IMG/VR virus record: IMGVR_UViG_3300020430_000009
Source of the DNA: a virus
Reading direction: 5' to 3' (one strand)
Length of the DNA stretch: 62,277 nucleotides
Below the pieces are notes generated by a model that did not search any database, had not been told where the DNA came from, and saw only the letters and a program-made list of their open reading frames with translations. This document shows, in pieces, positions 15,603 through 32,488 of the stretch (its first letter is position 1; every line of letters starts with the position of its first letter). Position numbers and translations under genes: made by a program.

Positions 15603-15924
15603 AAAATATGATGTAGATGGTGACGGAGTCGTAAGTGATGAGGAGTTAGACGTGGAAAGAAGAATGATTGAACTTGAAGACCTCAGGTCTGACATGGAGA
15701 ATGAAGATAAAAAGCAAGACGCCCAAAGAAACATGGCTTGGTTTGCTCTTGGTGGCATGCTACTTTATCCTGCTTTTGTTATTACTGCAACATTATTTAA
15801 ACTTGATAATGCTGCAAAAATATTAGGAGACATGGCCGCAGTATACTTTGTATCGGTAGCGGCAATCGTGGCAGCATTTTATGGTAAAGAGGCAATCACC
15901 CAAAAGAAAGTAGATAAAAAATAA
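15562..15924 (+). CDS. membrane protein with EF-hand-like loop (holin-like topology)
   Basis: DVDGDGVVSDEE followed by two transmembrane helices. Confidence 0.55.
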   Translation: MAAQKRLEKGSVYEKYDVDGDGVVSDEELDVERRMIELEDLRSDMENEDKKQDAQRNMAWFALGGMLLYPAFVITATLFKLDNAAKILGDMAAVYFVSVAAIVAAFYGKEAITQKKVDKK

Positions 15925-16499
15925 TGAAACTACATCAGTATGAAAATTATGATGAATATGTAAAGGAGCAGACTCAGGCTAACGTAGCTAAGTTAAAAAA
16001 CGTTTGGGTAAGAGAAAACGCTATTCAAAAAGTAGTGTCTTACAAACCTTTTGCTGCTAGCATATTGTGCCATGGAACTAGAAACGGTAAGGAACTCGAA
16101 TATTTTAAAAAGTTCTTACCTCATGCCGAAGTCGTTGGAACTGAAATATCTCATACAGCTACTCAGTTTAAGAACACGGTTCAACACGACTTCCATGAGG
16201 TTAGAGAAGATTTTATTGGTAAGTTTGATATAGTGTATTCAAATTCTTTTGATCATGCTTACGATCCGGATAAAGCTATATTAGCTTGGAAAGATCAGCT
16301 TACGTCAGAAGGTGTTTTAGTTATAGAACTTATGACAGGAGTTGAGAACGTATCTAGGCCAGTAGATCCACTTGAAATTAATTACGAAGAATTTAAAGAA
16401 CTTGCAGAAAAAAATGGATTGAGAATCTTTGAAAAAAATATCATGCAAAGACAGATGTCCGGCGCAAAGAACAGTATCATGGTGGCTTTAAAAAAATGA
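15924..16499 (+). CDS. class I SAM-dependent methyltransferase
   Basis: LCHGTRNG motif I, VGTEIS, FDIVYSNSFDH. Confidence 0.7.
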   Translation: MKLHQYENYDEYVKEQTQANVAKLKNVWVRENAIQKVVSYKPFAASILCHGTRNGKELEYFKKFLPHAEVVGTEISHTATQFKNTVQHDFHEVREDFIGKFDIVYSNSFDHAYDPDKAILAWKDQLTSEGVLVIELMTGVENVSRPVDPLEINYEEFKELAEKNGLRIFEKNIMQRQMSGAKNSIMVALKK

Positions 16500-17326
16500 C
16501 TAAAAGGTTAATATATCAGGTGTACACTGGCAAAAGATCTAAACTTTACGATCATTGCACAGCTTCTGTTAAAGCATATGCTGAAGACATTAACGAGAAA
16601 GAATCTCCTAACAATAGAGTTGACTATATAATTCAAACTCAACCAATCATGAAGATTAAACCTGACGTATTTGCCACAAATAGAAGTAAAGAATCTTATG
16701 AAAAGTATGGAGGATTCTTACCGATATATGAAAAAGAAAATGCATTTAATTATTGGGATCGTTATGATCAGATAGCTATCATAGATGCTGACGTTTGGGT
16801 AAGGCCAGGGACTGAAAATATATTTGACGTTATGAATCATGAAACGGAATTTGCTGGAATGGCAGAGAGAACAGCTCCAATTTTGCCATGGTATAAAGAA
16901 AAACTGATAGGTTATACTAGAATGCAATATTCTTCTTTAACGGATGTTGATTGGCGATGGAACGAATCCGGTGCTCATTTTTATAATATGGGCGTGATGC
17001 TACTAAACAGGCATATAGTTCAGTATTTAAAAGGTAAAAGTAAAAGATACGAAACTGGTAGAGAATTTATTGAAAGACCAGAGTTTAAAAGATTTGTTGA
17101 TGGACTTGGAGCTTGGAAGTGGAGTACGGATCAAACACTTTTAAATTACTGGGTCAAAAAAGAAAAAATGGAACAACAAGAATTAAGTTGGAAATGGAAT
17201 GCACTATATACTGCGATCTCTAATGAAGACGCTAAGAAAGCTTACTTCGTACATTTCTTTCTTAAAGACAAATTGCCTAACAGAGGCGAAGACGTAGAAA
17301 AGCTTATGGAGGACGTAAATGAATAG
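16496..17326 (+). CDS. GT-A fold glycosyltransferase (GT8-like)
   Basis: IIDADVW DxD, YNMGVMLL, DQTLLN, WNAL and FVHF motifs. Confidence 0.75.
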   Translation: MTKRLIYQVYTGKRSKLYDHCTASVKAYAEDINEKESPNNRVDYIIQTQPIMKIKPDVFATNRSKESYEKYGGFLPIYEKENAFNYWDRYDQIAIIDADVWVRPGTENIFDVMNHETEFAGMAERTAPILPWYKEKLIGYTRMQYSSLTDVDWRWNESGAHFYNMGVMLLNRHIVQYLKGKSKRYETGREFIERPEFKRFVDGLGAWKWSTDQTLLNYWVKKEKMEQQELSWKWNALYTAISNEDAKKAYFVHFFLKDKLPNRGEDVEKLMEDVNE

Positions 17327-18398
17327 GTACCATGTAACATATGAGGTTGATGGTCCAGACATACCAAAGATTGCTCATGAAATAGCTATTGGCCAAAGTA
17401 TTGGTAATCCAAATATTAGATCTGAAATAGAAAATTCAGATAATATTAAAGAAATGGCGGCTGAAATCGTAAGCATTGATGGCAATGAGGTTGTGATTTC
17501 ATTTCCTAATAAAGCATTTAATTGGCCAAACATCAATCAACTTATGTGTATTATTATGGGTGGACATACTGATATCATGGGAGTCGATAGATGTAGAGTC
17601 TTAGATATCAGTATTGAAGTTCCAGTTAAGGAGCCAGTGCTAGGAATGTCAGGCTTGAAAAAAAGAACTGGTGCTGAGGAAAGGCCACTATTTGGGGCTA
17701 TCGTAAAACCAAAGTCAGGACTTACAAAAGATCAGCTTACTGAAATAGTAAAACAAATGATGGACGGTGGAGCTGATTTTATTAAAGAAGATGAAATCAT
17801 GGCAGATAATTCATACCTGCCACTTCATGAAAGAGTGGAAGTAATTGAAACACTTAAAACAACTTGTGACTGGAAAGGATTCTACGCTTATTGTATAAAC
17901 GCAGATCCGTTAGATCTTATTGCTAACTTAAAGATAATTGATTATCATACAGGTCTAAAAGAAAATGTAATGGGAGGTGTTCATATCAACTTTTGGTCTG
18001 GCCTAGGTGCATATACCTCTGCTAGAGATATGAGTATTCCATGTCACTATCAAAGATCTGGAATTAGAATTTTAACAGATCCGAGTAATAAATACTCGAT
18101 AGCTTGGCCGGTTTTGGCTAAGTTAGGCTGTATGGCTGGAGTAGATAGTATGCACGTAGGAATGTTAGGTGGATATTATCCTGAAGGCGAGAGCGAGGAA
18201 GAAACTCTTAGGGCGATTGACATATGCAAACAACACAATACAATCCCATCGCTAAGTTGTGGAATGAATCCCGTACTCGCTCAAGAAATACGAGAGAGAA
18301 TTGGTAATGACTTTATGGCTTCAATAGGAGGCTGGCTCCATACTGGAGAAACTATATACGAAAAAGTATATGAGATGAGAAGAAGTCTTGATTCATAA
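17319..18398 (+). CDS. RuBisCO-like protein (form IV RLP)
   Basis: GAIVKPKSGL, GGADFIKEDE, AGVDSMHVG, PSLSCG and IGGWLH align with the RuBisCO large-subunit motifs; His294 and Lys334 equivalents appear absent. Confidence 0.88.
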   Translation: MNRYHVTYEVDGPDIPKIAHEIAIGQSIGNPNIRSEIENSDNIKEMAAEIVSIDGNEVVISFPNKAFNWPNINQLMCIIMGGHTDIMGVDRCRVLDISIEVPVKEPVLGMSGLKKRTGAEERPLFGAIVKPKSGLTKDQLTEIVKQMMDGGADFIKEDEIMADNSYLPLHERVEVIETLKTTCDWKGFYAYCINADPLDLIANLKIIDYHTGLKENVMGGVHINFWSGLGAYTSARDMSIPCHYQRSGIRILTDPSNKYSIAWPVLAKLGCMAGVDSMHVGMLGGYYPEGESEEETLRAIDICKQHNTIPSLSCGMNPVLAQEIRERIGNDFMASIGGWLHTGETIYEKVYEMRRSLDS

Positions 18399-18441
18399 TC
18401 CTATACAACGTGATGATTTAATTGAAGTGAAAGGTAAGACT

Positions 18442-19179
18442 ATGAGTTTAAAACTAATTATGCCAATGGCCGGCAATGGTCAAAGATTCTTCGACGCAGG
18501 CTACAATAGGCCAAAACCCTTGATTGATATTAAGGGTAAGCCGATGTTTAAAAGAGTAATCGATAATCTTGGAATGGACGTTGATCCTGTTTGTATAGTA
18601 CGGCAAGATCATGTAACTGACTACGAGATAGATAAGAGAATTATCGAGCATCAGCCGAATGCTAAGATAATTATTACCCCTGGACTAACTGAAGGTGCCG
18701 CATGTACGGTAAGACTAGCTACTAGTGTATTTAGTAACGAACCTATGATGGTCGCAAATTGTGATCAGCTTATGGTTTGGGACGACTTAGGATTTAACGG
18801 CTTGTGCGCTAGTGGAAAATTTGAAGGTGGAATTATTCCTACTTTTATTCCTAAGCATGAAGAGCCTATTCATAGTTATGTAAGAGTAAACGAAAATAAC
18901 GAAGTACTAGAACTAGCAGAAAAGAAACTAATATCTAATATAGCTACTGTTGGAGTTTACTACTTTGGTAGCGAATCTGGATGGTGCGCGGCTCATGCTA
19001 AGCAAATGGATAACGATGATAGAACTAATGGAGAGTTCTATCTCGCTCCAACTTATAATTATATTTCGTATCCAGTTGGAATATACCCTGTCGATCATAT
19101 GATCGGCATGGGTACACCAGAAGAACTAGATGCTTTAGTTGAAAGCGAATGGTTAGAAAGGCTAGACGAAATATCATGA
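18442..19179 (+). CDS. sugar-phosphate nucleotidyltransferase (BcbE-like / dTDP-Glc pyrophosphorylase-like)
   Basis: IMPMAGNGQRF...PKPLI, TEGAACT, NCDQ, ATVGVYYF, NGEFYLAP and GTPEEL motifs. Confidence 0.85.
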   Translation: MSLKLIMPMAGNGQRFFDAGYNRPKPLIDIKGKPMFKRVIDNLGMDVDPVCIVRQDHVTDYEIDKRIIEHQPNAKIIITPGLTEGAACTVRLATSVFSNEPMMVANCDQLMVWDDLGFNGLCASGKFEGGIIPTFIPKHEEPIHSYVRVNENNEVLELAEKKLISNIATVGVYYFGSESGWCAAHAKQMDNDDRTNGEFYLAPTYNYISYPVGIYPVDHMIGMGTPEELDALVESEWLERLDEIS

Positions 19180-19907
19180 AAATAGCAGTGTGCATATCAG
19201 GAGTTCCTAGAGGAAGAGTTAAAAGAAATATTGAGCACTTAGAAATGGCGTTTGAAGGAGCTGATTTCTTTTATTCAACTTGGAATGAAACTAGCAATGG
19301 AATATCTGAAAGCCTTAAAGCTTCTACGTATCCAGAACCTAAGATGCATTACAATCCATGGAGTGAGTGCGTCACTGCATGTAAGGCTCCAAAATATAAA
19401 GCTTACAAAGAAGACTTTTTAAGAAAAGGTCCTTTGTCTAGTCAACAGAAACTACTTAACGCTACAAAACAAATTATAGCTCACGCCTATCAAGTAGAAG
19501 ATTTACCAGAAGAATATGACATGATCATTAGAGCTAGATGGGACACCTACACATCGATAAAAGTCAACTTTGAAAAATACTTACAAGACTCGTATAACAA
19601 TCAACAAGCCATAGGGTTTGCTATAAGAGGTAGTAGATGGATAGACGTAAACAAATTTAGAGACATAGATCACATGTATATCGATGAAAACACGGATAAA
19701 AGTTGGAGTCGAGATTGGTCTTATTGGCTAAATGATAATTTAATAATACACCCTAGAAAAATATTTGATCCAGTCAGAGTCAAGCTACTTCATAGAATGA
19801 AAGGACTCTTGCCTTGCGAGTTTGGTTGGTATCAGGTACTAAGTAATAATGATAATCACCATTGCGTTTATGGTGGTGCCGCCATCGAAAGATTTGTAGA
19901 TAGATAA
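19176..19907 (+). CDS. putative glycosyltransferase
   Basis: MKIAVCISG...YDMIIRARWD pattern seen in viral glycosylation clusters. Confidence 0.55.
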   Translation: MKIAVCISGVPRGRVKRNIEHLEMAFEGADFFYSTWNETSNGISESLKASTYPEPKMHYNPWSECVTACKAPKYKAYKEDFLRKGPLSSQQKLLNATKQIIAHAYQVEDLPEEYDMIIRARWDTYTSIKVNFEKYLQDSYNNQQAIGFAIRGSRWIDVNKFRDIDHMYIDENTDKSWSRDWSYWLNDNLIIHPRKIFDPVRVKLLHRMKGLLPCEFGWYQVLSNNDNHHCVYGGAAIERFVDR

Positions 19908-20318
19908 ATGCTTGACACTTTGTTTAAGAGATACAAATCTAAAAGACCTCATGTTTATTACTATGAGAGAGAATTATTTAAACACAAAATATATCCTATC
20001 AATTTACTACAAGTAGGAATGGACACCACACTACAAGTTTGGCTTAAGTACTTGAAAAATTCGAATATCTATTGCATAGATAGTTTTAACAATTCGCAAC
20101 CAGTTAACTATAGTTTTTTAGATGACAAAAGATTATTTTGGTCAAGATGCGATCCTGACGATCGCAAAGCAGTAGATAAAATTATGCGTGAGATATGGAA
20201 TAAGCCAAGATTTGACGTGATTATAGATAATACTAACAACTTCGAAAATCTTAAAAGATACTGTATTGGAAAATACTACGCAGAGAAAAAAGATGAAGTC
20301 ATTTGCCATAGTTGTTAA
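19908..20318 (+). CDS. short or degenerate SAM-methyltransferase-like protein
   Basis: NLLQVG, IYCID and FDVIID remnants of a sugar O-methyltransferase fold. Confidence 0.45.
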   Translation: MLDTLFKRYKSKRPHVYYYERELFKHKIYPINLLQVGMDTTLQVWLKYLKNSNIYCIDSFNNSQPVNYSFLDDKRLFWSRCDPDDRKAVDKIMREIWNKPRFDVIIDNTNNFENLKRYCIGKYYAEKKDEVICHSC

Positions 20319-20994
20319 AGACAACAAAATATCAGAAGCTGGATTTGAAGAACTTAAAAGAACGTGGGGATCTTATGGATACGAATATTCTTCACTTGAA
20401 AAACACTATGCGACTCCTTTAGACAAAGTTGAAGGATACTGCGCTGGAAATGGATTGATTTGGAACTATCCGTGGGAAGGTGAAGTAATAGATATAAAAA
20501 GTGGACTTACCAAAAAAGCGTATCCAACCACAAATAGACTAGCAAGAATTTCTTGTTTCATGAGTCACTGGTATCTTTGGCAAAAATGTATAAAATTAGA
20601 CGAGATGATTTTAATATTTGAACATGACGCCAAGCTTATAAAACAGTTACCCAGTGTAAAAACTTTTGACAAGTGTTCATTCGATATTATTGGTATTAAT
20701 GATCCTTCTATGGCTACTAGAAAGTCTAAGTTATATCACGATTTGATTCTTAAAAATCCAGAAAAAATTCAGCCAGTTCCAACCATCGATGAAGTACACG
20801 TACCTCAAGGATTGGCTGGTAATTCTGCTTACGTAATCAAACCATCTGGAGCTAAAAAGATGATTGAACTTACAAGGGAACACGGGATGTGGCCAAACGA
20901 CGCACTTATGTGTAAACAGTTAATATCTACATTAGGTGTTACACGAAACTTTTACTCTACAATTCAAGGATTGAGGTCAACGACAACGCTATGA
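20293..20994 (+). CDS. glycosyltransferase family 25
   Basis: SCFMSHWYLW, LIFEHDA and AYVIKPSGAKKMI motifs. Confidence 0.8.
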   Translation: MKSFAIVVKDNKISEAGFEELKRTWGSYGYEYSSLEKHYATPLDKVEGYCAGNGLIWNYPWEGEVIDIKSGLTKKAYPTTNRLARISCFMSHWYLWQKCIKLDEMILIFEHDAKLIKQLPSVKTFDKCSFDIIGINDPSMATRKSKLYHDLILKNPEKIQPVPTIDEVHVPQGLAGNSAYVIKPSGAKKMIELTREHGMWPNDALMCKQLISTLGVTRNFYSTIQGLRSTTTL

Positions 20995-21641
20995 CAAATT
21001 ACTATGTAATCACTATGATGGACAACGAAAGATCTACTCAGGTTGCGAGAAGATGTATTGAAAGTGGAAAGAAGCTTGGATATAATATATTGATGTTTAA
21101 AGCTTTTACACCAGATAATTGCAATCCAGAAGAAGTGGCGATCACTAATGATTTACCACTAAAAGGATTTGAAGAAAAATACAGCAGAACCGGAAACTGC
21201 ATATCTGGATTTCTAAGTCATTTTCATTTATGGAAACTTACTGTGGCTAATAACACTCCAACTTTTATATTTGAACACGATGCAGTGATTCTCAATAAAC
21301 TTCCAGACATGACTAATTACGATATCTTATCAGTTGGAAAGCCTTCCTATGGAAAATTTAACATTCCAACTTTCTTAGGTGAAGGTCCACTAACTTCAAA
21401 AAGATACTTCCCTGGCGCTCACGGATACAGAGTAACACCAAAAGGCGCTCAAATGTTAATTGACGAAGCTAAACATACAGCTGGTCCTACTGACGTGTTT
21501 ATTCACGTAGATAAATTTCAGTATCATTTAGGAGAAACTTATCCATGGTCAGTAGAAGCTAATGACTCATTTACTACGATTCAAAGACAAGAAGGCTGTT
21601 TAGCAAAACACAATTATGGTGAAACTTATGAAATTATATGA
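20991..21641 (+). CDS. glycosyltransferase family 25
   Basis: GFLSHFHLW, FIFEHDA and GYRVTPKGAQMLI motifs. Confidence 0.8.
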   Translation: MTNYYVITMMDNERSTQVARRCIESGKKLGYNILMFKAFTPDNCNPEEVAITNDLPLKGFEEKYSRTGNCISGFLSHFHLWKLTVANNTPTFIFEHDAVILNKLPDMTNYDILSVGKPSYGKFNIPTFLGEGPLTSKRYFPGAHGYRVTPKGAQMLIDEAKHTAGPTDVFIHVDKFQYHLGETYPWSVEANDSFTTIQRQEGCLAKHNYGETYEII

Positions 21642-22266
21642 TGAGGCTTTTGTCACAGGTTGCGATAAAGGACATGAATGGATTCTTCCGTGGTTCTTAA
21701 ATAATTACAAACAACATGTTAATGTACCACTAGTGTTCGCTAACTTTGGCTTAACTAAAGAAGGCTTAAATCTAGTTAAAGATCATGCTCACGCAATCAT
21801 GGACTTAACTTCAGCAGAAGAAAAAGGCTGGTTCAAGAAACCATTATCTATGCTAAAGTGTCCAGCAAAGAAAACAGTTTGGATAGATACCGACTGCCAG
21901 ATCAAAGAAGACGTATCTGATATATTTGATCTTATTAAAGAAAATAAACTTTATATGGTAGAAGATAAACCATGGACTCAAAGGCGAGGAGAGGTTTGGC
22001 ATAACTCTGGTGTCGTTGGTTTCGTAAACAAACCACCAATACTATATCAATGGGTAAAGGCCGTAAAAGAAAATCCTACGGTAGGAGACCAAGAAACTTT
22101 ACATTCGATACTTAATCCTATAACTAAGATCGGTAACATCGCTGACTTGCCTAATAGATATAATGTTATGAGGTTACAAGTTGAACACGATAGTTATAAA
22201 GGACCGGTAAGTATCATGCATTGGACCGGCCAAAAAGGTAAAGATAGAATTAGGAATATGTTATGA
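21628..22266 (+). CDS. GT-A fold glycosyltransferase (GT8-like)
   Basis: WIDTDC, NSGVV, GDQETL and IMHWTG motifs. Confidence 0.7.
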   Translation: MKLYDEAFVTGCDKGHEWILPWFLNNYKQHVNVPLVFANFGLTKEGLNLVKDHAHAIMDLTSAEEKGWFKKPLSMLKCPAKKTVWIDTDCQIKEDVSDIFDLIKENKLYMVEDKPWTQRRGEVWHNSGVVGFVNKPPILYQWVKAVKENPTVGDQETLHSILNPITKIGNIADLPNRYNVMRLQVEHDSYKGPVSIMHWTGQKGKDRIRNML

Positions 22267-22883
22267 AGAAAGTTGTACACGTAATTGGTAACGGCGACCA
22301 AGCATCTTTATTTCACAAAGAACATCGGACTGGAATGAAACTAACATGTAATATTCCACCATGGCCAGTGGCTGGAGCTTATGGTACTATCATGGTAGAT
22401 TTTAAAATGATGAGAGCATTACATGAAGGTTCCTTAGATATACCGGGAGACTGGATATTAGGCATGAGGCCAAAGATATGGATGGATCAACAGCCTTCTT
22501 TCTTTATTAAACACTCTCATCAAGTTAAAGAGTTTTACACGGTCCTTCCAAATTACGTTGCAAACTACACTGATTTTAATTGCGGTCATATGGCAGTACA
22601 TTATGCCGCTAATAAAGTTAAAGCAGAAGAAATACATTTGTATGGATTCGATTCTATGTTTGATTTTAATCTAAGAAGCTGTTCTGATTTTTATCTTGGA
22701 TCTGATAGAGGTAATATGAACACAAATAGATTAGCCAATAACTGGAGACCAGTATGGCAAAACATGTTCAAAGAGTTTCCAGACACTACCTTTGTTCTAC
22801 ATCATATACATGATGCGATAAAGTTCCAAGTTCCTGATAATGTTGAAGTAATCACTTATTCTAGTAAGGCCGTAATGACTTAA
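22263..22883 (+). CDS. Maf/GT29-like transferase
   Basis: VHVIGNG...G..AV..A...IHLYGFD pattern. Confidence 0.55.
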   Translation: MKKVVHVIGNGDQASLFHKEHRTGMKLTCNIPPWPVAGAYGTIMVDFKMMRALHEGSLDIPGDWILGMRPKIWMDQQPSFFIKHSHQVKEFYTVLPNYVANYTDFNCGHMAVHYAANKVKAEEIHLYGFDSMFDFNLRSCSDFYLGSDRGNMNTNRLANNWRPVWQNMFKEFPDTTFVLHHIHDAIKFQVPDNVEVITYSSKAVMT

Positions 22884-24803: not shown

Positions 24804-24879
<76 letters not shown>

Positions 24880-27978: not shown

Positions 27979-29856
27979 TTACATTATACCTGCAGCTGCA
28001 AGATAAGGGTCTGCGGTGTCTACACCGGGGCCCTTATTCATTAGTGTAGTACCTCCAACCTTTACACTACGATCAGAAGCGTCGACATTTCCTCCAGTGC
28101 TAACATTTACATTTCCACCAGTTCCTCTGCCAGCGGATCTAGATCCACTATCTATAGCTGGTGGTTCAACACTGGTTGGTTTAACGGTAGTCTTTCCAAG
28201 TACAAAGTTAACTTTTTCTATTGTTTCTACGAGCTTGTCTATATTAAGATTTGGATTTAAGATACCACCTGAACCTTTTGGTCCAAAGTCTACTTCTTTC
28301 ATACCATCAAAATAGCCCGATCCAGCCTTACCACCATTTGCCATAACATTAAGTAAGTCGTAACTTGATGCTAGACTACTCGCTATATTTTGTATGCTTC
28401 TTTTGAAGTTTGTTACTCTTAAATTTTGTAATGACTCAAACGACTTTCCAAAATTAACGAGCGCATTTCCCATTAGGTCTAAGCTCTTTATCATTTGTAC
28501 GTCTAAGTCTTTTAGTGGAGCTAAAGAATCTACTATTGCTGCGATCTGACCTTTTCTTCTCTTATCTTGGTTGGCCTCCATGTTAGTGCCAAATAAAAAG
28601 TTAATTACTTTTGTGGCACCTTCCATTACACTATCAGTTATAGCACCTAGACCAGCTGCTCCAAAAAACTTTAACATCGCAGGTCCTACACCAGACAGCG
28701 CACTTACTTTATCTCCAATATTTGAATCAAGTTTTCCAAGTTCACCTAGAGCCTCTGCCATATTTTTCATAATGTCTTTAAGGCCACCTCCAGTTACTCC
28801 CATCTTATTGAAGAGATCGCCAACTCCAGCCAAAGCTCCGAAGAAACCAGCTACACCAGCGCCGATCAAGGTCATACCAATTGAAGCCATGCCAGCTAAT
28901 GGCGCGCCGAATAATCCTAGTGCTGCTCCAGTTCCCATAAATGCGCCTAGTGCTTTTAAACTATCTGGTGAAAAAGCATTAAGCGCTTCTGCTACGTTCT
29001 TCATCATGGTCGTAATAGCAGAACCGTCGACGTTTAGTAATTGAGTTAGCTTATCACCTACACCTAAAGCTGTAAAGAATCCAGCGATACCAGCTCCAAT
29101 AGCTGTAATTCCAACGGCCGCTTTTGCCGCCTTACCTACACCAAATAAAGCTGCAAGTGCTCCACCACCTGCCATAAGACCACCAAGCTTTACCAAACCT
29201 TCATTTGAAAGAGAACCTAGTGCCTCACCAAAATTCTTTAAGAATGCAGATATATTCTTTCCACCGCCACTATCCATCATTTCCATAGCTTTATCAGATG
29301 CGGCTAAAGCCGTAAAGAAACCAGCTATTCCAGCTCCCATAAGAGCTATTCCTGCTCCAGCGCTAAATCCTTTACCAAGTGCTCCAAATATAGCACCGGT
29401 CGCTAGAACCGCGCCAATGGCCTTCAGACCATTACCACCAAGACCTTCAAGGCCTTCACCTAAGTTAATCAATAATTTTTTAAGGTTGTCACCACCACCA
29501 AACTTTTGCATGATAGCCTCGGCTCCAGCAAGACCCATAAAGAAAGCGCCAACACCTGCACCTGCCGCTCCTATACCAATTCCTGCTCCACCGAGTATTG
29601 CTCCTAGACCTTTACCACCTAAGAAACCACCAAGGCCTGACATAATACCACCGCCACCAGATTTTTTACCACCTCTGGCTTGTGCTGCCGCAGCTGTATT
29701 AGAACCTTTTTCTCTGCCTTCTTCTAGTTTTTTTCTAGCTTCACTGGCAAAATAAGCTCCAAACATGTTTTCAAGACCGGCAACGCCGGCACTGATGTCG
29801 ACATTTGTCTCATTGTTTTCTTTAAGTTGCTGAATTACGTCGTCTAGTTTAGCCAT
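27979..29856 (-). CDS. tail tape measure / baseplate hub (gp29-like) protein
   Basis: 625 aa with repeated Gly/Ala-rich helices (GAGIAGFFTAL); downstream of gp26/gp51. Confidence 0.65.
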   Translation of the reverse strand: MAKLDDVIQQLKENNETNVDISAGVAGLENMFGAYFASEARKKLEEGREKGSNTAAAAQARGGKKSGGGGIMSGLGGFLGGKGLGAILGGAGIGIGAAGAGVGAFFMGLAGAEAIMQKFGGGDNLKKLLINLGEGLEGLGGNGLKAIGAVLATGAIFGALGKGFSAGAGIALMGAGIAGFFTALAASDKAMEMMDSGGGKNISAFLKNFGEALGSLSNEGLVKLGGLMAGGGALAALFGVGKAAKAAVGITAIGAGIAGFFTALGVGDKLTQLLNVDGSAITTMMKNVAEALNAFSPDSLKALGAFMGTGAALGLFGAPLAGMASIGMTLIGAGVAGFFGALAGVGDLFNKMGVTGGGLKDIMKNMAEALGELGKLDSNIGDKVSALSGVGPAMLKFFGAAGLGAITDSVMEGATKVINFLFGTNMEANQDKRRKGQIAAIVDSLAPLKDLDVQMIKSLDLMGNALVNFGKSFESLQNLRVTNFKRSIQNIASSLASSYDLLNVMANGGKAGSGYFDGMKEVDFGPKGSGGILNPNLNIDKLVETIEKVNFVLGKTTVKPTSVEPPAIDSGSRSAGRGTGGNVNVSTGGNVDASDRSVKVGGTTLMNKGPGVDTADPYLAAAGIM

Positions 29857-30034
29857 TTCCTTGTCTCTGTTTTAGTTCTTCTTCTTTAATTAAATCAACT
29901 AACATTCCAACATATACTTCTTTTTCCCACGGTATCAAATTGTCTATCTCACTAAGTGAATACTTATGGTGTTGCATTAAATCAAAATTTGTTTTATAAT
30001 ACGCATGCAACGACGTATGAGATAGACTAATTAT
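29849..30034 (-). CDS. gp51: gp51-like baseplate hub assembly domain, probably reached by -1 frameshift from gp26 (not in ORF track)
   Basis: frame reads IISLSHTSLHAYYKTNFDLMQHHKYSLSEIDNLIPWEKEVYVGML...; the conserved-looking part starts before the first ATG. Confidence 0.75.
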   Translation of the reverse strand: MISLSHTSLHAYYKTNFDLMQHHKYSLSEIDNLIPWEKEVYVGMLVDLIKEEELKQRQGNG

Positions 30035-30744
30035 AAAAAACTTTGCAGGCCCTCCAACACTATGGTATTTTTCTCTTTACATTTACCACATTCATAATTT
30101 ACGTCATAAGTAAGCTTTGGAATCTTTTCAACATATTCTCTAACCTTACCAAACTGTTCTTGAGTCATAGACTCTAAAAACTCTTGAAACTCTTCATGCG
30201 AAGTATCGTTCATATCGATTCTTTCTTCGTCTGTCATGACAGACATGACTGATTCTTTAATTAAAGCAAAAGCCTGTTCAGTTTTATCGAACCCTATTGC
30301 TTTTTCGTTTTTCATCATAGACATAAAAGTCGGGTGCTGCATTTCTAGCACTACATTGTCTGTAATTTTAACTTCATTATCGTCTGTCTGACCTTTCATT
30401 TCAATCTTACTTAAATCGATGGTTACTTCTGTCTCATGTTGATCTTCGCACTTATCACATTTAAGTAACACTTTAGTTGTTTCACCAACTGACTTTGCTC
30501 TAATTTGCAAAAATAAGTATTCGACATCGTAACCTGTTAATTTTTTAGTATCTATTTCGTCTATAATACACGCAGTTACGGCATCTAACATGGCCATGGC
30601 GATTTGTTGAGGATCTTGAGATTCTAAAGCAATCAACATAACTTTTTCTTCTTTAACAAGAAAAGGTCTTACTGATACTTTTTTATTTAGTGATGGTACC
30701 AAGATCTGATATTTAGGTACGTTATTTAGTTTTGGCAGCGCCAT
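30031..30744 (-). CDS. gp26: baseplate hub assembly chaperone gp26
   Basis: MALPKL..P.Y, RPFLVKEEK, LFLQIRAKSVGE and two CxxC motifs. Confidence 0.85.
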   Translation of the reverse strand: MALPKLNNVPKYQILVPSLNKKVSVRPFLVKEEKVMLIALESQDPQQIAMAMLDAVTACIIDEIDTKKLTGYDVEYLFLQIRAKSVGETTKVLLKCDKCEDQHETEVTIDLSKIEMKGQTDDNEVKITDNVVLEMQHPTFMSMMKNEKAIGFDKTEQAFALIKESVMSVMTDEERIDMNDTSHEEFQEFLESMTQEQFGKVREYVEKIPKLTYDVNYECGKCKEKNTIVLEGLQSFL

Positions 30745-30757
30745 TTCATTTCACTCC

Positions 30758-31387
30758 TTAAAATAATGATATTCCACCAAGAGGTGTTTGTATGTCCATA
30801 TTAATAAAGTTCTGCACTCCACTAGCAACTCTCCAGTTAGTGTATGCAAATGTAACGGTCAATTGGACTAGACCGTCAAGTTCGTTGTTTAAGTCTACCT
30901 GACTAGTATTTATTGGAAACGCGTCGATCAAATCTACACTGTAAACCGAGCCTCCTCCAAGACCAAGATTAAATCTAATAGGTCCTAGTTGTTTACTAAA
31001 TCCTTTCAATGGTTGTCTTAGCTGATGGATTTGTACTGTTCTTGCGTATTCTTTCTTATAATTAGATTCCATACCGGTCTCATTTATTACTGATGAGCGC
31101 CAGTTATCAAAGTACTTTTTAACTCCATAGTCATTCATAAGATAAAAGGTCATAGACACGTCGTCCACAGCATAGCCATAAGCCATCTTTTGAAACTCCA
31201 TACCTATTCGTCTTTCGTTAGTTATGATAGTTTTTGCCGGTAAGCTAGCGTTACTGCAGAGTATGTTTATGTTTCTAGTACTTTCACCACCAAAAGTTCC
31301 GGGCAAAGTAACTAAAAATCTGTTGTTTCTTGCAAAACCTAATTTAACCGAGGCTAAAGCTTTTAATTCATCTACACTAGTTGCCAT
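30758..31387 (-). CDS. tail tube initiator / tube-like protein (gp54-like)
   Basis: GFARNNRFLV, DAFPINTSQVDL and LTVTFAYTNW; ATG at 31387. Confidence 0.7.
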   Translation of the reverse strand: MATSVDELKALASVKLGFARNNRFLVTLPGTFGGESTRNINILCSNASLPAKTIITNERRIGMEFQKMAYGYAVDDVSMTFYLMNDYGVKKYFDNWRSSVINETGMESNYKKEYARTVQIHQLRQPLKGFSKQLGPIRFNLGLGGGSVYSVDLIDAFPINTSQVDLNNELDGLVQLTVTFAYTNWRVASGVQNFINMDIQTPLGGISLF

Positions 31388-31970
31388 TGGCAGCTCTCCT
31401 AGAATCAGAGTATATACTTCCTGCACTAGACTTTTTCCATGATGCGGTTGGTAAGAACGTAGCAATTTCCCACTCAGGTGCAGGCACTTCAGCAAATTTT
31501 GATTTTACTTGACTAAGTAGATAATGTTTAAAGCAAGGCTTGAAATATCTAAATTTTCGTGTACCACTTAATAAACTGTATGTCAATCTAAATTTGGTAG
31601 TGTTGTCGTATTTTTTGTTATTAGTTATCTCTAGCAATCCATCTAAAAATTTAGCTCTTAATACAGGAGGAAGATAGTGTAAGTTAACTCCATAGAATCC
31701 ACCCTTAGCTGGTTCTACTGGAATTGTAAGTGGAAACGTATCGTAGTACGGCAATTTGTCTTTTGTCTTTGGATCGTAGAAAAACATAAACATTCCACCA
31801 TAACTATGGGTACGAACTTGTTCTAATTCATCTTCTCTCATAAGCTGTTCGCGATTTATTCTCGTCAACCTTTGAATTCTTCTACGAAACCAGTCTCGAG
31901 ATTGCGCTGTACGCGGTGTAATACCAGCTCTAAATGCTTCTAGTTCTAGTTTTTGAAAGAGATTGCTCAT
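31377..31970 (-). CDS. gp2: DNA end protector protein gp2
   Basis: YDPKTKDKLPYYDTFPL, GVNLHYLPP and PCFKHYL motifs. Confidence 0.9.
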   Translation of the reverse strand: MSNLFQKLELEAFRAGITPRTAQSRDWFRRRIQRLTRINREQLMREDELEQVRTHSYGGMFMFFYDPKTKDKLPYYDTFPLTIPVEPAKGGFYGVNLHYLPPVLRAKFLDGLLEITNNKKYDNTTKFRLTYSLLSGTRKFRYFKPCFKHYLLSQVKSKFAEVPAPEWEIATFLPTASWKKSSAGSIYSDSRRAANGN

Positions 31971-31975
31971 ACTTC

Positions 31976-31983
31976 TATTTATA
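31976..31983 (-). promoter_or_regulatory. T4-type late promoter TATAAATA
   Basis: exact consensus just upstream of gp2. Confidence 0.75.
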
Positions 31984-31984
31984 A

Positions 31985-32488
31985 CTATTTTTTGCGCTTT
32001 TTACGCCTGAATTGTTTTAATGGTTTATATGTACCTTTGAGCTTTCCAGGGACTGGTTTTTGCATAAGTTTCATTTCTTGTAAAGTCTTTTCAGTCCATA
32101 TTTGAAACTCCCATCCTCTATCTTTAGCAAATTCATTTGCGGCTTCCCACTTATTCATATTTTTTATATATGTCAAACCTTCACTTATGTACTGCTTAGT
32201 CTTTCTTTTACCTTCAGGTGGCCGTGTTTCTTTTTCTGGTTTTATCTCTACTAAGAGAGTTTTATCATCAAATACTATTTTCATGTCAACAAAATATCTG
32301 TGGTATTTCTTATCAACTTCATAAAAATACGGCACTATAACTTCTTCAGAACTCCAATTTCTTACCTTTGGATTATTATCGCACCACTGAAATACGGCTT
32401 TCTCCCATAAAGACCTATATACTACTTTAGAGGCATCACCTTTGTACTTTTGTCTGTTCTTAACTTTATATAAGCCTGAATAAACCAT
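31985..32488 (-). CDS. gp4: head completion nuclease gp4
   Basis: KYKGD...YRSLWE, WSSEE, HRYFVD, EIKP and NKWEAA motifs. Confidence 0.9.
   Translation of the reverse strand: MVYSGLYKVKNRQKYKGDASKVVYRSLWEKAVFQWCDNNPKVRNWSSEEVIVPYFYEVDKKYHRYFVDMKIVFDDKTLLVEIKPEKETRPPEGKRKTKQYISEGLTYIKNMNKWEAANEFAKDRGWEFQIWTEKTLQEMKLMQKPVPGKLKGTYKPLKQFRRKKRKK

What the first reader, a model, noticed from the sequence alone, without database searches (positions are those of the whole stretch)
17319..19179. Phage-encoded RuBisCO-like protein coupled to a sugar nucleotidyltransferase
Seen: a compact 359-aa RLP keeps the Lys175/Lys177 equivalents (VKPKSGL) and the carbamylation/Mg motif as KEDE rather than KDDE. 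It has HYQR in place of HxHR (His294 to Gln), no loop-6 Lys334 (HVGMLGGYY) and SCG for SGG. It overlaps an upstream glycosyltransferase and precedes a BcbE-like nucleotidyltransferase. Established: form IV RLPs do not fix CO2; they act as enolase (MtnW), isomerase (methylthioribulose-1-P) or decarboxylase/transcarboxylase in branched-sugar (apiose, hamamelose) catabolism. Inference: here the RuBisCO fold is used biosynthetically to isomerise or epimerise a sugar phosphate into an unusual monomer, which is NDP-activated by the neighbour and transferred by the glycosyltransferases. I know of no characterised RLP with this role in a phage.
Basis: partly seen in the sequence, partly recalled or inferred. 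Interest (0 to 1): 0.88.

Follow-up and report, generated by a model that had tools for sequence, protein, structure and literature searches.

The report
Phage RuBisCO relative feeding sugar activation
A marine T4-like phage carries a small RuBisCO relative that almost certainly cannot fix CO2; it nearly always sits beside a sugar-activating enzyme, so it probably makes a rare keto-sugar phosphate for glycan building, a job not yet shown for this enzyme family.

Summary
Observation confirmed. ORF 17319-18398 is an intact 359-aa RuBisCO-fold protein (Z about 38) in a T4-like phage glycan cluster. It keeps the metal site and K175/K177 but lacks E60, N123, H294 and K334. In their place are invariant Q294, Y334, C380 and a new His. 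It most likely belongs to the published, uncharacterised phage/Beckwithbacteria 'IV-like' clade (Jaffe 2019), which also reaches SAR11, Legionella, DPANN and CPR. Linkage to one nucleotidyltransferase (NT) family is strong: 77 of 82 loci, plus one fusion. That NT resembles KfoH of the E. coli K4 fructosylation locus, not KfoE/BcbE. RLP-free versions of the module use a beta-PGM-like HAD, or phosphoribulokinase with a RuBP-5-phosphatase-like HAD, which points to a ketopentose 1-phosphate as NT substrate. Best guess: the RLP shifts the carbonyl of a pentulose 5-phosphate to give the 1-phosphate, the reverse of the R. rubrum 1,3-isomerase (about 0.35). Any biosynthetic sugar-phosphate rearrangement: about 0.8. 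No activity was tested, and the RLP/HAD exclusion failed a tree-corrected test. This scan noted the same cassette earlier on other phage DNA.

The parts
17319..18398 (+). RuBisCO-like protein (RLP) of the IV-like clade, 359 aa
   Evidence: Pfam PF00016 and PF02788; model and fold match; tree
17706..17714 (+). K130 and K132, equivalents of RuBisCO K175 and K177
   Evidence: Invariant in 80 of 80 non-redundant homologs
17784..17795 (+). K156-E157-D158-E159, the carbamylation and Mg site (K201-E204)
   Evidence: Invariant in 80 of 80
17982..17990 (+). H222 and N224, clade-specific invariant residues on the strand that carries RuBisCO 266-268
   Evidence: 80 of 80 each; position from PDB alignments; catalytic role inferred
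18051..18065 (+). Q245 (H294), R246 (R295; K, R or S in the family), I249 (H298; often D or E in the family): altered distal-phosphate site
18174..18176 (+). Y286 at the loop-6 K334 position
   Evidence: Ungapped alignment with form I loop 6; invariant in 80 of 80
18255..18263 (+). S313-C314-G315 (S379-G380-G381), with an invariant Cys
   Evidence: 80 of 80
18442..19179 (+). Sugar-phosphate nucleotidyltransferase (NT), KfoH / PDB 4EVW family, 245 aa
   Evidence: Pfam PF00483; 4EVW E 6.6e-39 by profile; K4 KfoH E 3e-24; near the RLP in 77 of 82 loci
19176..19907 (+). DUF7796-related GT-A-fold protein, candidate transferase for the activated sugar
   Evidence: 5 of 24 family members hit DUF7796; family profile hits K4 KfoD at 5e-8; model matches GT-A and IspD-type folds, Z 13.4, rmsd 3.5, 182 aligned
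16496..17326 (+). GT8-like glycosyltransferase; linked mainly in close phages
   Evidence: Pfam PF01501 E 0.002, below cut-off
15924..16499 (+). SAM-dependent methyltransferase
   Evidence: Pfam PF08241
19908..20318 (+). Conserved small gene of the cluster, unassigned
   Evidence: No Pfam hit; present in 15 of 82 loci
20266..21641 (+). Two GT25 glycosyltransferases (20266-20994, 20991-21641)
   Evidence: Pfam PF01755, E 6.5e-14 and 4.6e-12
21616..22883 (+). GT8-like gene (21616-22266) and an MptE-like gene (22263-22883) closing the cluster
   Evidence: Weak Pfam hits, below cut-off

Best explanation
The RLP is a Mg/carbamate-dependent ketose-phosphate isomerase working in the biosynthetic direction. 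It binds a host pentulose 5-phosphate (D-xylulose-5-P or D-ribulose-5-P) by its phosphate in the retained P1 site and walks the carbonyl along the chain through enediolates. The product is a pentulose 1-phosphate, formally the reverse of the R. rubrum methylthioribulose-1-P 1,3-isomerase. Y286, H222 and C314 are candidate acid/base groups. The NT then joins this phosphate to an NMP. A GT-A protein (19176-19907 here) or LicD (Legionella) puts the sugar, or sugar-phosphate, on a glycan. Where a mini-phosphodiesterase is present it may move the phosphate to the anomeric O2. Shown: fold, residues, clade, gene linkage, partner homologies. Inferred: every chemical step, the substrate, the stereochemistry, the nucleotide and the acceptor. 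The broader claim (a non-carboxylating enzyme that prepares a sugar phosphate for this NT) deserves about 0.8.
For: NT within 6 genes in 77 of 82 non-redundant loci, viral and cellular; RLP-NT and phosphodiesterase-RLP fusions. The same NT plus phosphodiesterase module occurs in E. coli, Azospirillum and Hirschia plasmids with phosphoribulokinase (E 1e-60), a HAD whose best match is haloarchaeal RuBP 5-phosphatase (E 2e-49, below cut-off) and a class II aldolase. That enzyme pair would give ribulose-1-P (PMC9700705). RLP-free viral modules all carry a beta-PGM-like HAD (51 of 51); only 7 of 82 RLP loci do. Some RLP-linked NTs are 59-68% identical to HAD-fused NTs. NT and the GT-A gene are homologs of K4 KfoH and KfoD; related Bcb genes are needed for fructose, a ketose (PMC13552107). 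Legionella RLP-NT lies next to LicD, which fits an NDP-linked primary alcohol. RLP 1,3-isomerase chemistry is known (PMC5893883). The sister RLP lies with an FGGY kinase, a transketolase and a ketose-bisphosphate aldolase.
Against: No biochemistry. The RLP/HAD exclusion is not independent of phylogeny: the sign test on independent pairs gave p = 1 with very few informative pairs, and 10 NT domains have both. The protein is far from the DeepYkr isomerases in tree and motifs. A basic residue is mostly kept at position 295, as for a bisphosphate. No mini-phosphodiesterase, cupin or HAD was found in this window, and no mini-phosphodiesterase in five partial phage records. Papers report no donor-synthesis genes in the xylulose O-antigen clusters of E. 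coli O95/O97 or Y. enterocolitica O:10.
Confidence: 0.35

Rival explanations
1. Epimerase or 1,2-isomerase of a ketose 1-phosphate or bisphosphate (for example RuBP to XuBP, Ru1P to Xu1P, FBP to its C3 epimer). It would be the counterpart of the class II aldolase/epimerase in the phosphoribulokinase cassette, with a host or cassette phosphatase doing the rest.
For: K or R kept at 295, H327 and S379 kept. Extra polar residues could protonate the opposite face. HAD and RLP co-occur in some cassettes. RuBisCO misprotonation to XuBP is a known side reaction (own knowledge).
Against: H298 is lost and often acidic. No phosphoribulokinase or other RuBP source recurs beside the RLP. Most RLP cassettes lack a phosphatase.
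Confidence: 0.25
2. Alpha-ketol or aldol rearrangement of a ketose phosphate into a branched sugar phosphate (hamamelose or apiose type), which the NT then activates.
For: Other RLPs act in branched-sugar catabolism (OiaX family match; own knowledge). The sister RLP lies beside a split transketolase and an FGGY kinase, as in apiose catabolism (own knowledge). A cupin is often attached.
Against: The NT is close to NTs of RLP-free modules whose partners point to linear ketoses. The OiaX score is 86 bits against a cut-off of 700.
Confidence: 0.15
3. Decarboxylase or transcarboxylase of a 3-oxo acid sugar phosphate (OiaX-like), making a shorter sugar for activation.
For: The metal site is intact and the chemistry is known in the superfamily.
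Against: No dehydrogenase travels with the RLP-NT pair. The loop-6 Lys kept in OiaX is Tyr here.
Confidence: 0.06
4. Auxiliary metabolic gene: a true carboxylase or a methionine-salvage enzyme that supports the host.
For: The best database scores are to form III RuBisCO models and structures.
Against: E60, N123, H294 and K334 are all replaced. Scores are far below the cut-offs: form III 116/497, MtnW 44/514. It forms a separate clade. No AMP-pathway or salvage genes recur nearby, whereas glycan genes do.
Confidence: 0.04

Closest known systems
'Form IV-like' RuBisCO-related proteins of phages and Beckwithbacteria (Jaffe et al., 10.1101/386292)
   Same: Divergent RLP on myovirus-type contigs from IMG/VR; a Beckwithbacteria member (L109) falls in the same well-supported clade.
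   Different: The paper left the function unclear, and its main text has no hit for 'glycosyl'. Here the clade is tied to an NT module and extended to SAR11, Legionella, Nonomuraea, Azospirillum and DPANN.
R. rubrum / R. palustris DeepYkr RLP, methylthioribulose-1-P 1,3-isomerase (PMC5893883)
   Same: RLP fold, the proposed carbonyl-shift chemistry, and an adjacent cupin in many loci.
   Different: Different clade and active-site motifs; catabolic salvage with a methylthio substrate rather than glycan biosynthesis.
Fructose side-chain systems: E. coli K4 KfoD/I/E/H and P. multocida BcbE/F/G (PMC13552107, PMC7429809)
   Same: Homologous NT (KfoH) and DUF7796-type protein (KfoD); a ketose is added to a glycan.
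   Different: They use a kinase-domain protein and a small HAD, with no RLP. The Kfo-to-Bcb correspondence is from my own knowledge and gene order.
Haloarchaeal RuBP phosphatase and ribulose-1-P aldolase (PMC9700705)
   Same: Related enzymes accompany the same NT family in the phosphoribulokinase cassette, which suggests ribulose-1-P.
   Different: A catabolic pathway with no NT and no RLP.
OiaX, MtnW and form III RuBisCO
   Same: Fold, metal site, K175/K177.
   Different: Scores far below family cut-offs, separate clades, different catalytic residues and gene neighbours.

Membership tests
RuBisCO superfamily | N-terminal domain plus (beta/alpha)8 barrel | tested here: met
   Pfam; Z 38.6, rmsd 2.4, 349 aligned
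RuBisCO superfamily | Carbamylatable Lys with acidic Mg ligands | tested here: met
   K156-E-D-E159 invariant; carbamylation itself not tested
Carboxylating RuBisCO (forms I-III) | E60, N123, H294 and K334 present | tested here: not met
   G25, G82, Q245, Y286
Carboxylating RuBisCO (forms I-III) | RuBP-dependent CO2 fixation | not testable with these tools
   Needs an assay
MtnW enolase (IV-YkrW) | Family score; Lys at the N123 position; hydrophobic distal pocket | tested here: not met
   44 bits against 514; Gly at that position, K/R at 295. No named MtnW sequence was in the tree.
IV-DeepYkr 1,3-isomerase | Clade membership and His at position 204 | tested here: not met
   Motif-assigned DeepYkr sequences (L333-L339) are the most distant reference group, at 5.2 substitutions per site; Glu at 204 here
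IV-DeepYkr 1,3-isomerase | 1,3-isomerase activity | not testable with these tools
   Proposed by analogy only
OiaX decarboxylase | Family score, clade, apiose-catabolism context | tested here: not met
   86 bits against 700; separate clade; glycan context
Phage/Beckwithbacteria IV-like clade (Jaffe 2019) | Divergent monophyletic RLP group with phage and Beckwithbacteria members | tested here: met
   48 sequences, support 0.999, including L109
Phage/Beckwithbacteria IV-like clade (Jaffe 2019) | Direct match to the paper's own sequences | not tested
   Their sequences were not fetched
BcbE/KfoE (for the NT) | About 520-540 aa, NT-like plus kinase domain | tested here: not met
   245 aa, no kinase domain; E 1.7 to the KfoE N-terminal part (an IS-interrupted copy), E 3e-24 to KfoH
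WavE (for 19176-19907) | Profile similarity to WavE proteins | tested here: inconclusive
   HHalign probability 8.7%, 41 columns

The most novel reading that the evidence does not exclude
A widespread RuBisCO-fold clade has been rewired (Tyr on loop 6, Cys at G380, a new His) to make a pentulose 1-phosphate from a central pentulose 5-phosphate in one step. It would be the entry to an undescribed route to NDP-activated keto-pentoses used by large phages, SAR11, Legionella, CPR and DPANN, and the first glycan-biosynthetic role for the superfamily that I know of.
Probability: 0.35. Interest if true: 0.85.

Novelty: new variant of a known kind. Interest (0 to 1): 0.62.

Why it matters
The characterised RLPs I know of are salvage or catabolic enzymes. 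A biosynthetic RLP would add a reaction type to the RuBisCO superfamily and give a function to a clade that has been unexplained since 2019. It also argues against counting these phage genes as carbon-fixation genes. How bacteria activate keto-pentoses for glycans is open (the donor genes for xylulose in E. coli O95/O97 are unidentified, PMC7685785). The two-gene RLP-NT unit, including a natural fusion, makes a small, defined test possible.

Tried and rejected
No RLP homolog among 50,697 annotated phage records and only other RLP types among the top plasmid hits, so no cultured phage anchors the function. Raw RLP/HAD anticorrelation was strong (123 RLP only, 51 HAD only, 10 both, 18 neither), but the sets were sampled by different queries and the tree-corrected test was uninformative, so I treat it as a lead only. 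I looked for the module in xylulose O-antigen loci: a distant DNA search of E. coli genomes found nothing for the cupin-NT pair and only two plasmids for the kinase cassette, and the papers list no such genes. The 19176 gene did not align convincingly with WavE. No mini-phosphodiesterase in two Legionella genomes, only weak partial matches, so it is not an obligate partner. The cupin profile hit nothing near DeepYkr RLPs within 1.5-kb flanks. A paper search for a characterised loop-6-variant RuBisCO of this clade returned nothing. The 'Balneola' MAG match was rejected as host evidence: it is a 25-kb contig with a 99%-identical RLP, probably mis-binned phage DNA. No complex prediction was run.

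Full report
1. Observation. The ORF at 17319-18398 encodes 359 aa, has a Shine-Dalgarno-like sequence and overlaps the upstream GT8-like gene by 8 nt. Pfam gives RuBisCO_large at E 3.6e-22. A model built from 118 homologs has pLDDT 93 and matches RuBisCOs and RLPs about equally, Z 36-39 at 17-24% identity. Against a 99%-identical virus, 36 of 43 base changes are at third codon positions, so the gene is under purifying selection. The window is a T4-like phage. The downstream NT most likely starts at 18442.

2. Active site. Mapping to spinach numbering used HMMER alignments to solved structures and an alignment with form I-IV sequences. Kept: K175, K177, K201, D203, E204, H327, S379, G381, G403, G404. 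Changed: E60 to Gly, T65 to Asn, N123 to Gly, D202 to Glu, H294 to Gln, H298 to Ile (often Asp or Glu in the family), K334 to Tyr, G380 to Cys. H222 and N224 are new. Q245, Y286, C314, H222, N224 and D85 are invariant in 80 of 80 non-redundant homologs. This pattern fits a live enzyme with an intact metal site and P1 phosphate site, a weakened distal phosphate site and a new set of acid/base groups. It does not fit carboxylation. The catalytic roles are inference; I had no access to the model coordinates.

3. Family. A protein search returned 943 homologs; there are 391 viral stretches and 50 loci in the GTDB genome collection, including Pelagibacter, Legionella, Nonomuraea, Azospirillum, Beckwithbacteria and DPANN archaea. 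In a FastTree of 146 sequences, 48 share the signature and form one clade (support 0.999), far from forms I-III, OiaX and motif-assigned DeepYkr. Family scores are far below the cut-offs for form III, OiaX and MtnW. Jaffe et al. (10.1101/386292) described about 90 phage 'IV-like' sequences grouping with Beckwithbacteria and left the function unclear. This is very likely the same clade, though I did not compare their sequences.

4. Gene neighbours. Among 82 loci whose RLPs are under 90% identical, the NT lies within six genes in 77, a small cupin in 36, a mini-phosphodiesterase in 35, and DUF7796-like proteins in about 29. In the reverse search, 50 of 52 non-redundant viral cupin loci carry the RLP (the query came from RLP-linked cupins, so this is biased). 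One protein fuses RLP and NT, another fuses phosphodiesterase and RLP. RLP plus NT is the minimal unit: this window has no cupin, mini-phosphodiesterase or HAD, and Legionella has RLP-NT beside a LicD gene. The gene at 19176-19907 has a GT-A-type fold. Some cellular loci also carry GT2 and PMT-type (GT-C) transferases.

5. What the NT module handles. The NT is a full-length homolog of the E. coli K4 gene after kfoE (KfoH), and the 19176 family matches KfoD. kfoE deletion removes fructose from the K4 capsule (PMC7429809), and P. multocida bcbE and bcbG mutants lose fructose (PMC13552107). The gene names in the K4 locus rest on the published primer position and on sizes I recall. The same NT family occurs without the RLP in two other forms. 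(a) Fused to or beside a beta-PGM/CbbY-like HAD, with the mini-phosphodiesterase and DUF7796 or WavE proteins, in many phages including cyanophages S-CAM9 and B3 and on plasmids. (b) With phosphoribulokinase, a HAD closest to haloarchaeal RuBP 5-phosphatase, a class II aldolase, GtrA and GT2, on plasmids of three genera. Form (b) would make ribulose 1-phosphate from ribulose 5-phosphate (PMC9700705). That is the most specific clue to the NT substrate: a ketopentose 1-phosphate.

6. Mechanism. If the NT takes a pentulose 1-phosphate and the RLP cassette usually has no kinase or phosphatase, the simplest role for the RLP is to make that compound from a pentulose 5-phosphate by moving the carbonyl. 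The R. rubrum and R. palustris RLP does this in the other direction on the methylthio analogue (PMC5893883). The earliest-branching member of the clade (P0259) sits in a catabolic operon with an FGGY kinase, a split transketolase, a ketose-bisphosphate aldolase and a cupin, which also fits ketose-phosphate chemistry. The HAD is present in 51 of 51 viral loci from the NT-anchored search (49 of them RLP-free) and 7 of 82 RLP loci, and some RLP-linked NTs are 59-68% identical to HAD-fused ones. However, the tree-corrected test did not support exclusion, so replacement of HAD by RLP remains a hypothesis. I give 0.35 to the carbonyl shift, 0.25 to epimerisation, 0.15 to a branched product, 0.06 to decarboxylation and 0.04 to a carboxylase or salvage role. 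The acceptor (virion protein, host surface or DNA) and the host are unknown.

7. Limits. No activity was measured. Loci were the best 50-80 hits per scan, not a random sample. Genes were called mechanically and some high-GC loci were miscalled. Known xylulose O-antigen clusters do not appear to carry the module.

8. Verdict. A real gene in a published but unexplained RLP clade, with strong genomic evidence for a glycan-biosynthetic role and a specific, testable substrate hypothesis. The scan had already noted the RLP cassette on two other phage windows and the phosphoribulokinase cassette on several. These notes are not independent support; linking the two cassettes through a shared NT substrate is this report's inference. 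Interest 0.62.

Noticed in passing
L348:1046-11447: The earliest-branching member of the clade (P0259; Gly rather than Cys at 380) lies in a catabolic operon with an FGGY kinase, split transketolase, ketose-bisphosphate aldolase, cupin and a glycosidase. It may be the easiest route to the clade's chemistry.
   Followed up: partly
L224:5203-12405; L311:5921-13305; L312:3704-14263: Conserved plasmid cassette: double NT, GtrA, GT2, phosphodiesterase, phosphoribulokinase fusion, RuBP-phosphatase-like HAD and class II aldolase, in E. coli, Azospirillum and Hirschia.
   Followed up: partly
L128:6624-9853 (also L129, L130, L131, L345): Several Legionella species carry RLP-NT near a divergent LicD gene, outside any large glycan locus; 5 of 24 genomes of the genus have the RLP.
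   Followed up: partly
L137:5694-10390; L138:4207-9881: Cultured cyanophages S-CAM9 and B3 carry the HAD-NT fusion, mini-phosphodiesterase and DUF7796-like genes without the RLP; they could be used to identify the sugar.
   Followed up: no
P0348 (583 aa): A TIR domain fused to a divergent RuBisCO-like protein.
   Followed up: no
P0272, P0279: IF-2B-family domain (likely ribose-1,5-bisphosphate isomerase) fused to a RuBisCO that keeps the carboxylase motifs.
   Followed up: no
L087 (PCAT01000110.1): A contig in a 'Balneola' MAG carries a 99%-identical RLP; probably mis-binned phage DNA.
   Followed up: no
L350:1-16742: RLP-cupin-NT-phosphodiesterase cassette on a 356-kb contig, surrounded by many radical SAM genes and followed by a HAD and a kinase-like gene.
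   Followed up: no
window 24804-24879: tRNA-Arg(TCT) gene.
   Followed up: no
window 27979-32488: A block of minus-strand genes with reversed GC skew between the SSB gene and the baseplate genes.
   Followed up: no
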